This document shows positions 36,001-38,673 of a stretch of 38,787 nt of DNA, piece after piece. The position numbers were made by a program. Numbering within the stretch: the first letter of the stretch is position 1; the number at the start of each line of letters is the position of its first letter. Source of the DNA: Escherichia coli (lineage in GTDB: Bacteria > Pseudomonadota > Gammaproteobacteria > Enterobacterales > Enterobacteriaceae); assembly GCF_003334385.1 (NCBI RefSeq), contig NZ_QOWN01000040.1, one strand, 5' to 3'.

Positions 36001-38673
36001 GGGCTACCAACTTCGATCCGGAATCGCAAAAAAACCGGCCTCACCAGTCGGTTTTTTTGCGTCTGTACCTCCTCCCCGGACAGCAGTTCTCTCACTCCCG
36101 TTGAATATTTCCTGTTGAATTTTACGAAAATACGGCAAATGGGAGATATCGAATATATTTACTTGGGTGTAGTCGGTAAAAACCAGCTCATGTTTGACTC
36201 ACAGAAACAGGCTCTGGAAGTACAGAAAGTAATCTGTCCGTAGATTATTAAAGGGCAGAGGGCGGTGACCCTCTGCCCTTAAGTACGTTTCCGGGATTAT
36301 CAGTCAACCAGTTCCCGGATCAGTTCCAGGATTGCTATCACTGCGTTAGCCACAGCAACAACCGCCCTGAGAACGATGATTAACAGGTTAATCATCCGTT
36401 TCTCCATCAATGGAGGAAGTCACCGTTGCTTGCTCATACATCGCCTGTCACAACGGCTCTCTGACATTGTTGGATGTAGAGTACATTCCCCCCTGCCAGA
36501 GCACTGAACACAGCACCACCTGTTTGTTCAGCCAGGACTTTAATTCATCCATACACAGATAGAACAGGTTTTAGAAGCAAGGGAGGCACACTGTACAGCG
36601 CCAACACAAAGATTATACAGATGCACACATAAAATTCATTTAAAGAAATGAATATTGACAGGCAATCTGAAGTCAAACTAGACAACAGATGTCTGGTGCC
36701 ATAATATTATGGATGTTGGATGTAGAGTATCTTCCTCCGGTCAGAGCACCAACTCCGCTCCGGAATCACAAAAAACCGGCCTCACCAGTCGGTTTTTTTG
36801 TACCTGTCTCCCACCACCTTCTGCCGTTCGCTCTTCTCTGTGAAAATGTCCTGTTGAACTCATTCCTGTCCGGTTATTACCGGCGCTGATTCGCATTCAT
36901 GCCACCCGACTTAATCCCGAAATTTATCCATTCATCTATGGAGGAATCCCCGTGTCTTACCAACAGACGTCTGCCGCCGAAGATCCAATGGCTATATGGT
37001 ATATCGTCGGTGCCATATGCCTGCTCTTTGCGATTATCATCTGGCGCTTTTTACCTGAAATCGTCTTCGCCTCCTGCCTGATCCTGCACACACTGTGGGG
37101 CATGATTGACTGGGGGCCCTTTCACAACTTTGCCGCCCCCCGTTACAACCTGCTGGCCATCACTGCTAACAACGCGGCAACCATCACTTTCGGCCAGTGG
37201 CTGGATGTTATGTCCCGGACAGTGGGGATCCTCTGGTTGATTCTGCTTCCCATGACATTCGGCTTTCTGTGGATGTGGTTTCACCATCCGGCCCAGCCCC
37301 GTTTTACCCGCAGGCCACTGAATATCCACACACTGCCCCATATTTTTTCAGCTCTGTCACCGGCGATCGCCCCCGTTCTGGCTGATGGAGACAACAACAG
37401 ACTCTTCCACGGACAAAAACGTCCCGAGCGCCGTGTCGCACTAACCCCCGAAGTCTTTGTGGAGCAGAACAACCTTATCCGCAACATGCAGCTCGATGTT
37501 GCGTCCACACGCCAGTGCTTCATGGCGCAACTGGGGCAACCACTGACCAGCTGGAAAGACATGGCCCCACATGAAAAAGCGCTCTTTGCCATCTTTGGCC
37601 TGCAGTTCTTCCTCGGTGACCGGAAAGCAGCGGTAGCCCTGATGAACAACCTCAATCTCTCCTGCAGGCTCAAAAGTAAACGGGACCAGGGGCGTTTCAG
37701 CACGCCGGTGTATTCACTGGCCAGAAACGCCTTTATCCGGGTCATCAAAACAGAAGGCGCACAACAGTGGCTCAGGCAGCACCGTTACGTTCGCAGCGGT
37801 CTGGTCTGGCTTTACGCACATGATTTGCGCCTGACGCCTCCGAACTGGCTGTGGCTCAAGGGCGTTGACCGGACGCTCTTCTATGCCCTTCACCGGGCAA
37901 ACACCACAAAAGGCTTCATCGAAGGGGCCGGCGTGGTGGCCGTTGCCCGGGCAGAAAATGAAGCCAGCCGTCTCGGCCTCCCCTGCCCGGAACCCTGTGT
38001 GGAAGAGGCCATTGAAGGGCTTCGACGGGACATGCTGGGGCTGGGCCTGATATGGGACGAACCTCAGCCAGATCGCGATCGTAAACGTCAGATCAGGACC
38101 CGCTGGTCACTCACGGATGACGTGATACCCCGCCGCCATGATAACGACGAAGACACTGACACTGGTGAAACCACCGAAACCACCGAAACCACCGAAACCA
38201 CCGAAACCACCGAAACCACCGAAAAACAGCATCCCGCCGACAAGGAAAAAGAACAATGACCATCCACTACACTGCAACACTGAATAATAAACACCTGTCC
38301 CTGACCGCCCTGTACCCTGACGGTAATCGGGAGGTGATTGCCATCCTGCCAGTCACAGAACTGGGCGCACTGATTAACCGTAATAACAGGCTGATGCACC
38401 TGTCCTTCAGTTCCCCTTTTCGCGAAATAACCGAAACGGTGCTTGTTGATACCGTTGATGCAGAACGTCCCGGACATCACATCGGCAGAATGCTCTCAGC
38501 GATTGATGCCTGCCTGGATGCCGAATATGCCGGAAAAGGAAAACATCCCTCCCGGAAAAATGGCTTCTGGCGGACACTGATGTGTGGCTTTATCGCCGGA
38601 ATTGCTCTGCCGGCGACAGTTGCAGGTTACCACTGGATGAAGGCAGAGCCCCCTTCCACGCTGGCTTACCCTA

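What the first reader, a model, noticed from the sequence alone, without database searches (positions are those of the whole stretch)
38167..38220. Perfect 9-bp tandem repeat (GAAACCACC x6) in-frame at the trbA 3' end
Six identical units encode (ETT)6 in the acidic C-terminal tail of the DotM-like protein. Perfect short repeats are prone to slipped-strand mispairing; because the unit is 9 bp, copy-number change keeps the frame and varies tail length. The minus-strand ORF 38088..38480 (VVSVVS...) is just the mirror of this repeat.
Basis: seen in the sequence. Interest (0 to 1): 0.4.

Follow-up and report, generated by a model that had tools for sequence, protein, structure and literature searches.

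The report
Hypervariable 9-bp repeat in plasmid trbA
A perfect 9-base repeat at the end of a conjugation gene (trbA) of IncB/O/K/Z resistance plasmids changes its copy number (1 to 13) faster than any other site in the surrounding plasmid backbone compared, lengthening or shortening a floppy acidic protein tail without breaking the gene; it is an ordinary kind of slippage repeat, but apparently undescribed and possibly useful as a plasmid-tracking marker.

Summary
Window 38167..38220 holds six perfect GAAACCACC units, plus a partial seventh to 38224. They are in frame as codons 406-423, (ETT)6, of the 435-aa TrbA ORF (36952..38259, +).

TrbA is a DotM-like type IVB coupling-complex subunit (Pfam DotM_C, E = 3.8e-47). 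The array lies in a C-terminal extension that is specific to this plasmid lineage, acidic, and predicted to be disordered. It ends 35 nt before the trbA stop, which overlaps the trbB start (ATGA).

- About 470 related plasmids and 381 E. coli genomes carry 1 to 13 units, always differing by whole units.
- Seven IncK2 blaCMY-2 plasmids of the pDV45 lineage have zero mismatches over 21 kb around the array, yet carry 6, 9, 10, 10, 11, 12 and 12 units.
- Two very different TrbA backbones each span the range.

Best explanation: an in-frame hypermutable repeat (a VNTR) that changes by replication slippage in a length-tolerant tail. The slippage mechanism and near-neutrality are inferred, not measured.

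No functional effect is shown. Predicted accessibility of the trbB ribosome site is the same at every copy number. The searched literature does not describe this repeat. It is a new member of a known kind and of moderate interest. Its main uses would be as a plasmid typing marker and as a warning for assembly and annotation.

The parts
38167..38220 (+). Six perfect GAAACCACC units, codons 406-423 of trbA, encoding (ETT)6. This is the variable array.
   Evidence: Relatives carry 1-13 units at the same position.
38221..38224 (+). Partial seventh unit (GAAA), the first bases of the fixed EKQHPADKEKEQ end.
   Evidence: Tandem Repeats Finder reports 6.4 copies; sequence read.
36952..38259 (+). trbA CDS (GTG start, 435 aa), a DotM/IcmP-like subunit of the type IVB coupling complex.
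   Evidence: The protein is identical to L001 TrbA WP_000121918.1.
37504..38025 (+). DotM_C cytoplasmic domain (residues 185-358). Homology to DotM ends here.
   Evidence: Pfam PF23127, residues 185-358. PDB DotM alignments end at residue 358.
38026..38136 (+). Family-conserved C-terminal segment (residues 359-395, ...GLIWDEPQPDRDRKRQIRTRWSLTDDVIPRR). The last helix ends at about residue 364.
   Evidence: Alignment A1 has invariant G365, L366, W368 and W385. Relatives' tails.
38137..38256 (+). Lineage-specific acidic extension (residues 396-435, HDNDEDTDTG(ETT)6EKQHPADKEKEQ), pI 4.05, net charge -12, predicted disordered.
   Evidence: AlphaFold2 pLDDT is below 50 with no secondary structure for residues 371-435.
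38242..38258 (+). trbB Shine-Dalgarno-like AAGGA (38242-38246) and ATG (38256-38258), embedded in the last trbA codons. The trbA stop TGA (38257-38259) overlaps the ATG as ATGA.
   Evidence: Sequence. Relatives annotate trbB starting at this ATG. Predicted unpaired probability is 0.80-0.81 at every copy number tested.
38256..38710 (+). 5' part of trbB (DsbC-family), intact in relatives (372-374 aa) but interrupted here.
38711..38787 (+). End of an IS3-family insertion sequence that interrupts trbB. It creates the stop at 38724-38726 that closes the 156-aa ORF.
   Evidence: 3519 places in E. coli genomes, annotated IS3 family transposase. No PLSDB plasmid has this junction.
38088..38480 (-). 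Antisense ORF (130 aa, ...SVVSVVSVVS...). A mirror of the array, not a gene.
   Evidence: It lies wholly inside the annotated trbA/trbB coding sequence, and no relative annotates a gene there.

Best explanation
The array is an in-frame, hypermutable variable-number tandem repeat inside trbA of I-complex 'cluster 2' plasmids (IncB/O/K/Z, IncK2).

Proposed mechanism: during plasmid replication the nascent strand misaligns by one or more 9-bp units on the perfect GAAACCACC array (slipped-strand mispairing). Whole units are added or lost. Because the unit is three codons (Glu-Thr-Thr), the reading frame, the trbA stop and the overlapping trbB start 35 nt downstream are all preserved.

The only product-level change is the length and charge (-1 per unit) of a disordered acidic extension. 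This extension lies beyond the DotM-like fold and beyond the family-conserved C-terminal segment. That region tolerates 1 to at least 13 units, so alleles accumulate, are mostly near-neutral, and recur independently in many plasmid lineages.

Shown here: the array, its frame, its position in a predicted-disordered lineage-specific tail, whole-unit polymorphism, and change faster than point substitution.

Inferred: the slippage mechanism and near-neutrality.
For: - Perfect array, in frame.
- Direct reading of relatives with identical immediate flanks shows 1, 2, 6 and 12 units.
- Systematic 'spread' samples give copy numbers 1..12 with these counts. PLSDB, 60 of 471 plasmids: 7, 7, 4, 6, 5, 10, 6, 3, 3, 4, 2, 3. 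Complete E. coli genomes, 59 of 393 records: 6, 13, 4, 7, 6, 6, 5, 4, 3, 2, 2, 1. All length differences are multiples of 9. The maximum seen is 13.
- Three Danish IncK2 blaCMY-2 plasmids are identical over 20,267 + 20,289 bp around the array but carry 10, 9 and 6 units.
- Seven plasmids of that lineage, including pDV45 and a US plasmid, have 0 mismatches over 18,000 + 3,000 bp but carry 6, 9, 10, 10, 11, 12 and 12 units.
- Two TrbA backbones that differ at 30 residues each carry wide ranges: 2/6/12 and 1/6/11/12.
- A diverged lineage keeps the array with synonymous ACC/ACT unit variants and 2-4 units.
- The tail lies beyond the DotM homology, is predicted disordered, and is absent from all other TrbA relatives, which stop about 33 residues earlier.
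- The pDV45 assembly was Sanger-verified for indels (PMC5350095).
Against: - No read-level or single-culture data could be examined, so the mutation rate and mechanism are not measured.
- Copy number was stable (12 units) between a donor strain, in two assemblies, and its MG1655 transconjugant, so change is not seen at every transfer.
- Near-neutrality is not demonstrated. The family-wide conservation of an acidic C-terminal end suggests the tail's charge may matter, and no 0-unit allele was seen.
- Large differences (10 versus 6) between identical backbones could also come from unequal recombination.
Confidence: 0.8

Rival explanations
1. Adaptive tuning knob. The acidic tail interacts electrostatically with the basic DotM-like domain or with another coupling-complex partner, acting as a pseudo-substrate or gate. 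Copy number then sets transfer efficiency or substrate choice, and selection in different hosts drives the diversity.
For: - The DotM-like part of TrbA (residues 1-358) is strongly basic (+11.4) and the tail acidic (-10), with each unit adding -1.
- Legionella DotM binds acidic Glu-rich C-terminal peptides through Arg patches. Of these, R314 is highly conserved (PMC5802825) and aligns with TrbA R307, which is invariant in alignment A1.
- All 37 full-length relatives outside this lineage keep a net-acidic or neutral end that finishes in Phe, so the C-terminal end is under some constraint.
- trbA is essential for conjugation in an IncB/O/K/Z plasmid (PMC10286972).
Against: - The allele distribution is broad and flat (1-13), with no favoured length. 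It shows no visible link to host or backbone.
- Identical epidemic plasmids circulate with 6-12 units.
- AlphaFold2 gives no confident docking of the tail.
- The other Arg residues of the Legionella patch are poorly conserved.
- No phenotype data exist.
Confidence: 0.12
2. The same polymorphism is generated mainly by RecA-dependent unequal crossing-over or gene conversion between plasmid copies or multimers, rather than by replication slippage.
For: Arrays of 54-117 bp exceed the minimal length for RecA pairing (established knowledge, about 25-30 bp). Multi-unit differences such as 10 versus 6 occur between identical backbones.
Against: Single-unit neighbours (9/10, 10/11, 11/12) dominate within the clonal IncK2 set. 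For short tandem repeats in E. coli, RecA-independent slippage is the established main route (general knowledge, not tested here). The available sequences cannot distinguish the two.
Confidence: 0.15
3. RNA-level function. The unstructured A/C-rich array acts as a ribosome standby or spacer element, and its length tunes translation of the overlapping downstream gene trbB.
For: The array is predicted to be largely unpaired (0.68-0.82 for two or more units). It lies 35 nt upstream of the trbB start, whose Shine-Dalgarno-like sequence sits in the last trbA codons.
Against: Predicted unpaired probability of the trbB SD-AUG segment is 0.80-0.81 for 0 to 16 units. trbB is translationally coupled to trbA by the ATGA overlap, so ribosomes arrive by translating through the array in any case. 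No Rfam family or promoter-like site lies at the array.
Confidence: 0.05
4. The copy-number differences are sequencing or assembly artefacts.
For: Short-read assemblies do break at the array. The 'partial' TrbA clusters P0002 (96 members) and P0058 end exactly at its start. The exact look-up found only variants with three or fewer units.
Against: Hundreds of independent complete assemblies show only whole-unit differences, with flanks intact. Arrays of 117 bp or less are shorter than typical reads. pDV45 (12 units) was verified by PCR and Sanger sequencing. The same alleles recur in unrelated studies, for example 10 units in Denmark and the USA.
Confidence: 0.02

Closest known systems
Variable QQP repeat in the C-terminal extension of the F-like coupling protein TraD
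   Same: It is a short in-frame repeat of variable length in the unstructured C-terminal extension of a conjugative coupling-complex protein. Its length differs between closely related plasmids: 5 residues in F and 23 in R1 (PMC3245843).
   Different: The protein is different (the VirD4-type ATPase TraD, not the DotM-like accessory subunit), as are the plasmid family (MPF_F, not MPF_I) and the chemistry (Gln/Pro, not acidic Glu/Thr). In TraD the repeat precedes a defined TraM-binding tip. Here no partner is known, and the sequence after the array carries the trbB ribosome site.
Coding VNTR loci used for MLVA typing of Enterobacteriaceae (6-9 bp in-frame repeats)
   Same: A perfect short unit that is a multiple of 3, whole-unit changes, evolution much faster than point substitution, and homoplasy (my general knowledge; behaviour shown here).
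   Different: This locus is on a conjugative plasmid inside an essential transfer gene, so it would type the plasmid rather than the host chromosome. No paper describing it as a marker turned up in the searches made.
Phase-variable contingency loci (simple-sequence repeats that switch genes on and off)
   Same: The same mutational engine: slippage on a perfect tandem repeat.
   Different: The unit is 9 bp and in frame, so there is no on/off switching. Every allele from 1 to 13 units keeps trbA and the trbB start intact.
Legionella DotM/IcmP and IncI1 (R64) TrbA
   Same: The host protein shares the DotM_C fold region, N-terminal helices predicted by AlphaFold2 (residues 12-110), and the conserved Arg that aligns with DotM R314.
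   Different: DotM and all TrbA relatives outside IncB/O/K/Z lack the ETT array. Those relatives end about 33 residues earlier in an acidic stretch plus a terminal Phe, and at least one (L010) has an intergenic gap before trbB instead of an overlap.

Membership tests
In-frame hypermutable VNTR (slippage-type coding tandem repeat) | Head-to-tail perfect copies of a short unit | tested here: met
   6.4 copies, 100% matches, period 9.
In-frame hypermutable VNTR (slippage-type coding tandem repeat) | Unit length is a multiple of 3 and in register with the ORF | tested here: met
   The 9-bp unit starts at codon 406 and encodes ETT.
In-frame hypermutable VNTR (slippage-type coding tandem repeat) | Copy number differs among relatives in whole-unit steps, with flanks conserved | tested here: met
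   1-13 units. All span differences are multiples of 9.
In-frame hypermutable VNTR (slippage-type coding tandem repeat) | Changes faster than point substitution, with variation among otherwise identical genomes | tested here: met
   0 mismatches in 21-40 kb, yet 5 alleles among 7 plasmids.
In-frame hypermutable VNTR (slippage-type coding tandem repeat) | Length variants arise within a clonal culture at a measurable rate, independently of RecA | not testable with these tools
   No read data or experiments were available. A donor and its transconjugant both had 12 units.
Phase-variable contingency locus | Copy-number change shifts the frame or alters promoter spacing so that expression switches on and off | tested here: not met
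   All alleles keep the trbA frame and the ATGA overlap with trbB. No promoter-like site lies at the array. Accessibility of the SD-AUG segment does not change with copy number.
DotM/IcmP family (host protein TrbA) | DotM C-terminal cytoplasmic domain | tested here: met
   Pfam PF23127 E = 3.8e-47, residues 185-358. PDB DotM chains E = 1e-7.
DotM/IcmP family (host protein TrbA) | Reaches the NCBIfam equivalog cut-off for DotM_IcmP_IVB | tested here: not met
   69.3 bits against a curated cut-off of 230. The protein is DotM-related, not an equivalog.
DotM/IcmP family (host protein TrbA) | Encoded next to a DotL-type coupling ATPase | tested here: inconclusive
   Relatives have trbA-trbB-trbC, with TrbC carrying TraG-D_C. 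The window ends in an IS inside trbB, before trbC.
Acidic C-terminal signal or tip with a hydrophobic end (T4B E-block signals; SSB-type DDDIPF tip) | Acidic run followed by a hydrophobic C-terminal residue | tested here: not met
   The window tail ends ...ADKEKEQ. By contrast, 37 of 37 relatives outside the lineage end in Phe.

The most novel reading that the evidence does not exclude
The (ETT)n array is a rapidly evolvable regulator of the type IVB coupling complex. The acidic tail would act as a built-in pseudo-substrate for the basic, Glu-rich-peptide-binding surface of the DotM-like domain. In this lineage it would replace the 'acidic + terminal Phe' tip that every other TrbA carries. Slippage would then let IncB/O/K/Z plasmids retune conjugation rate or substrate recruitment on epidemiological time scales.
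Probability: 0.1. Interest if true: 0.65.

Novelty: new member of a known kind. Interest (0 to 1): 0.35.

Why it matters
IncB/O/K/Z and IncK2 plasmids spread blaCMY-2, ESBL and other resistance genes among E. coli and Shigella in poultry, food and patients. Their backbones are often too uniform to trace: there were 0 SNPs over 21-40 kb in the plasmids compared here.

A locus that takes at least 13 states within such a clone has three practical consequences:
- It offers a cheap, PCR-sizable marker for plasmid transmission studies. Homoplasy is a caveat.
- It explains recurrent contig breaks and 'partial TrbA' calls in draft assemblies.
- It explains why the RefSeq product name flips from 'IncI1-type ... 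TrbA' to 'hypothetical protein' or 'DotM-related subunit' once the array reaches about 10 units.

Biologically, the array marks a length-tolerant acidic tail on an essential and poorly understood coupling-complex subunit. If length does affect transfer, conjugation efficiency would be a slippage-tunable trait.

Tried and rejected
- A literature search for the bare 9-mer returned 537 unrelated papers and was useless. Searches combining trbA, tandem repeat, IncI1, IncK, 9-bp, pDV45 and IncK2 found no description of this array. The 9-bp repeat mentioned in PMC8004404 is next to pilJ, not in trbA.
- I tried a census by exact-sequence look-up of synthetic TrbA variants with 0-9 units. It found 1, 2 and 3 units (3, 36 and 217 contigs). 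It reported the window's own protein as absent, although that protein is RefSeq WP_000121918.1. The look-up is therefore incomplete for longer arrays and I rejected it as a census. I ran no further search on 10-19 units.
- Accession AP005147 (R64) is not in the collections. I used metagenome and NCBI contigs encoding P0003 and P0010 instead.
- I aligned the trbA-trbB junction across lineages to test whether the tail arose by stop loss or frameshift. The junctions are too diverged, so the origin is unresolved.
- mRNA-structure tuning of trbB gets no support.
- A DNA-level or RNA-gene role for the array was checked. No promoter-like site and no Rfam family lie at the array. One weak minus-strand terminator-like pattern lies just downstream (38239-38227), and the total number of terminator-like sites is not clearly above the shuffle expectation.
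- The antisense and other-frame ORFs across the array are rejected as mirrors.

Full report
**1. The observation**

The sequence at 38167..38220 is six perfect copies of GAAACCACC, followed by a partial GAAA. Tandem Repeats Finder reports period 9, 6.4 copies, 100% matches and score 116. The next best tandem repeat in the window scores 43. The array starts exactly at codon 406 of the ORF 36952..38259 (+ strand, GTG start, 435 aa) and encodes (ETT)6.

**2. The gene**

The ORF has the same limits and the same protein sequence as RefSeq 'IncI1-type conjugal transfer protein TrbA' WP_000121918.1 in plasmid pEcoUTI1f, typed IncK2/Z, MOBP, MPF_I. Three results show it is DotM-related:
- It matches Pfam DotM_C over residues 185-358 (E = 3.8e-47).
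- It matches NCBIfam DotM_IcmP_IVB at 69 bits, below the equivalog cut-off of 230.
- It matches the solved Legionella DotM chains up to residue 358.

TrbA is required for conjugation in an IncB/O/K/Z plasmid (PMC10286972). The DotM structure paper states that TrbA's own function is unknown (PMC5802825).

**3. Where the array sits in the protein**

- DotM homology ends at residue 358.
- Residues 359-395 (…GLIWDEPQPDRDRKRQIRTRWSLTDDVIPRR) are conserved across TrbA relatives, with W368 and W385 invariant.
- Everything after that, HDNDEDTDTG(ETT)6EKQHPADKEKEQ, is found only in the IncB/O/K/Z cluster.
- The 37 full-length relatives outside that cluster stop about 33 residues earlier, in a net-acidic or neutral stretch that always ends in Phe, for example GDDDSPF or ATDHEF.
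- At least one relative has a 138-bp gap before trbB. In the window lineage the trbA stop instead overlaps the trbB ATG as ATGA, and the last trbA codons carry the trbB Shine-Dalgarno-like AAGGA.
- AlphaFold2, run with a 27-sequence alignment, gives pLDDT below 50 and no secondary structure for residues 371-435.
- The DotM-like part of the protein (residues 1-358) has net charge +11.4 and the tail -10. Each unit adds -1.

**4. Copy number across relatives**

Megablast of the 601 bases around the array found 471 PLSDB plasmids: 395 Escherichia, 60 Shigella, and 464 typed conjugative. The matched spans differ from the query only in steps of 9. Reading the fetched loci directly confirmed 1, 2, 6 and 12 units with identical immediate flanks.

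Copy-number counts in the two even-step samples:

| Units | PLSDB plasmids, 60 of 471 | Complete E. coli genomes, 59 of 393 records |
|---|---|---|
| 1 | 7 | 6 |
| 2 | 7 | 13 |
| 3 | 4 | 4 |
| 4 | 6 | 7 |
| 5 | 5 | 6 |
| 6 | 10 | 6 |
| 7 | 6 | 5 |
| 8 | 3 | 4 |
| 9 | 3 | 3 |
| 10 | 4 | 2 |
| 11 | 2 | 2 |
| 12 | 3 | 1 |

A query carrying 20 units showed a maximum of 13 among the top-ranked complete E. coli genome records; longer arrays in lower-ranked records are not excluded. A lineage with 88-92% identical flanks keeps the array with 2-4 units and synonymous ACC/ACT unit variants. No allele with 0 units was seen.

**5. Speed of change**

- Three IncK2 blaCMY-2 plasmids from one Danish slaughterhouse series are identical over 20,267 bp upstream and 20,289 bp downstream of the array. 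They carry 10, 9 and 6 units.
- I added two more Danish plasmids, pDV45 and a US poultry plasmid. All seven then have 0 mismatches over 18,000 + 3,000 bp, and carry 10, 9, 6, 11, 12, 12 and 10 units. The array is the only variable site in that 21 kb.
- pDV45 was assembled with PCR and Sanger confirmation of indels (PMC5350095).
- Two TrbA backbones that differ at 30 residues each span the range: 2/6/12 and 1/6/11/12. One-unit alleles occur on flanks of several identity classes. Changes are therefore recurrent.
- The array is not wildly unstable. A sheep isolate (two assemblies) and its MG1655 transconjugant plasmid pMD27 all have 12 units.

**6. Mechanism**

The best-supported reading is a slippage-type, in-frame VNTR in a length-tolerant disordered tail. 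The shown steps are the perfect array, the frame, whole-unit polymorphism, hypermutability relative to substitutions, and the location outside the conserved fold. Two steps are inferred:
- that replication slippage, rather than unequal recombination, is the engine;
- that the alleles are close to neutral.

An RNA-level effect on trbB got no support. The predicted unpaired probability of the trbB SD-AUG segment is 0.80-0.81 for 0 to 16 units. Nothing promoter-like and no Rfam family lies at the array.

A functional 'tuning' reading cannot be excluded. DotM binds acidic Glu-rich C-terminal peptides through Arg patches. The conserved DotM R314 aligns with the invariant TrbA R307. The whole TrbA family keeps an acidic C-terminal end. 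Against this, the allele spectrum is flat and there are no phenotype data.

**7. Comparison with what is known**

The closest documented analogue is the variable-length QQP repeat in the unstructured C-terminal extension of F-like TraD coupling proteins, 5 residues in F and 23 in R1 (PMC3245843). In behaviour the array resembles the in-frame VNTRs used for MLVA typing. It is not a phase-variation switch, because every allele stays in frame. I found no paper that describes this trbA array. The library searched is incomplete, so that is absence of evidence only.

**8. Practical consequences noticed**

- Draft assemblies break at the array. The 'partial' TrbA clusters P0002 (96 members) and P0058 end exactly at its first codon.
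- The exact-sequence look-up found only variants with three or fewer units, although longer ones exist in RefSeq.
- The RefSeq product name changes once the array reaches about 10 units.

**9. Verdict**

This is a new member of a known kind, of moderate interest (0.35). Its value lies in plasmid epidemiology and in flagging an evolvable tail on an essential, poorly understood coupling-complex subunit.

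Noticed in passing
window 38711..38787 (junction at about 38710): trbB (DsbC-family, 372-374 aa in relatives) is interrupted after about codon 152 by the end of an IS3-family insertion sequence. The window's 156-aa ORF 38256..38726 is the truncated product. No PLSDB plasmid shares this junction. An insertion here could be polar on the essential trbC, so this plasmid's transfer system may be impaired.
   Followed up: partly
relatives P0003-P0041 (C-termini); L009 1460, L010 3715: All 37 full-length TrbA relatives outside the IncB/O/K/Z cluster end in an acidic or neutral stretch plus a terminal Phe (GDDDSPF, DGDEESPF, ATDHEF...). From memory, this resembles the SSB C-terminal tip DDDIPF and the 'acidic block + hydrophobic end' of Dot/Icm secretion signals. 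The window lineage has lost this tip.
   Followed up: partly
window 35973..36060 and 36716..36801 (+), with toxin genes on the minus strand around 35600-36600: There are two Rfam AgrB antisense-RNA matches (47.7 and 51.8 bits). Relatives annotate two DinQ-like type I toxin dqlB genes just upstream of trbA. This looks like a roughly 0.7-kb tandem duplication of a type I toxin-antitoxin module, with about 82% identity between the copies. The 12-bp repeat CAGTTCCAGGAT that Tandem Repeats Finder reports at 35625 and 36309 marks the two copies.
   Followed up: partly
relatives H1, H10-H12, H26-H29, H61, H63, H139-H175 versus H2-H9, H176-H178: The RefSeq product name depends on the number of units. 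With 9 or fewer it is 'IncI1-type conjugal transfer protein TrbA'. With 10 or more it becomes 'conjugal transfer protein TrbA', 'secretion/conjugation apparatus DotM-related subunit' or 'hypothetical protein'.
   Followed up: no
protein clusters P0002 (405 aa) and P0058 (406 aa): Many 'partial' TrbA proteins from draft genomes stop exactly at the first codon of the array, so short-read contigs break there. The exact-sequence look-up also lacks every variant with four or more units, including the window's own RefSeq protein.
   Followed up: partly
L002, L003, L013, L015 versus window, L001, L004, L014 (TrbA residues 5-about 30 and beyond): Two sharply different TrbA N-terminal or membrane-segment variants (30 amino-acid differences, starting at residue 5) are combined with identical C-terminal tails. 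This suggests recombination within trbA among IncB/O/K/Z plasmids.
   Followed up: no
L012-L015 locus coordinates about 1,500-9,000 (between excA and trbA): The excA-trbA interval is a hotspot for cargo and insertions. Different plasmids carry a TnsA-like gene, hok/gef, ISEc12, a thermonuclease gene and one or two dqlB modules there.
   Followed up: no
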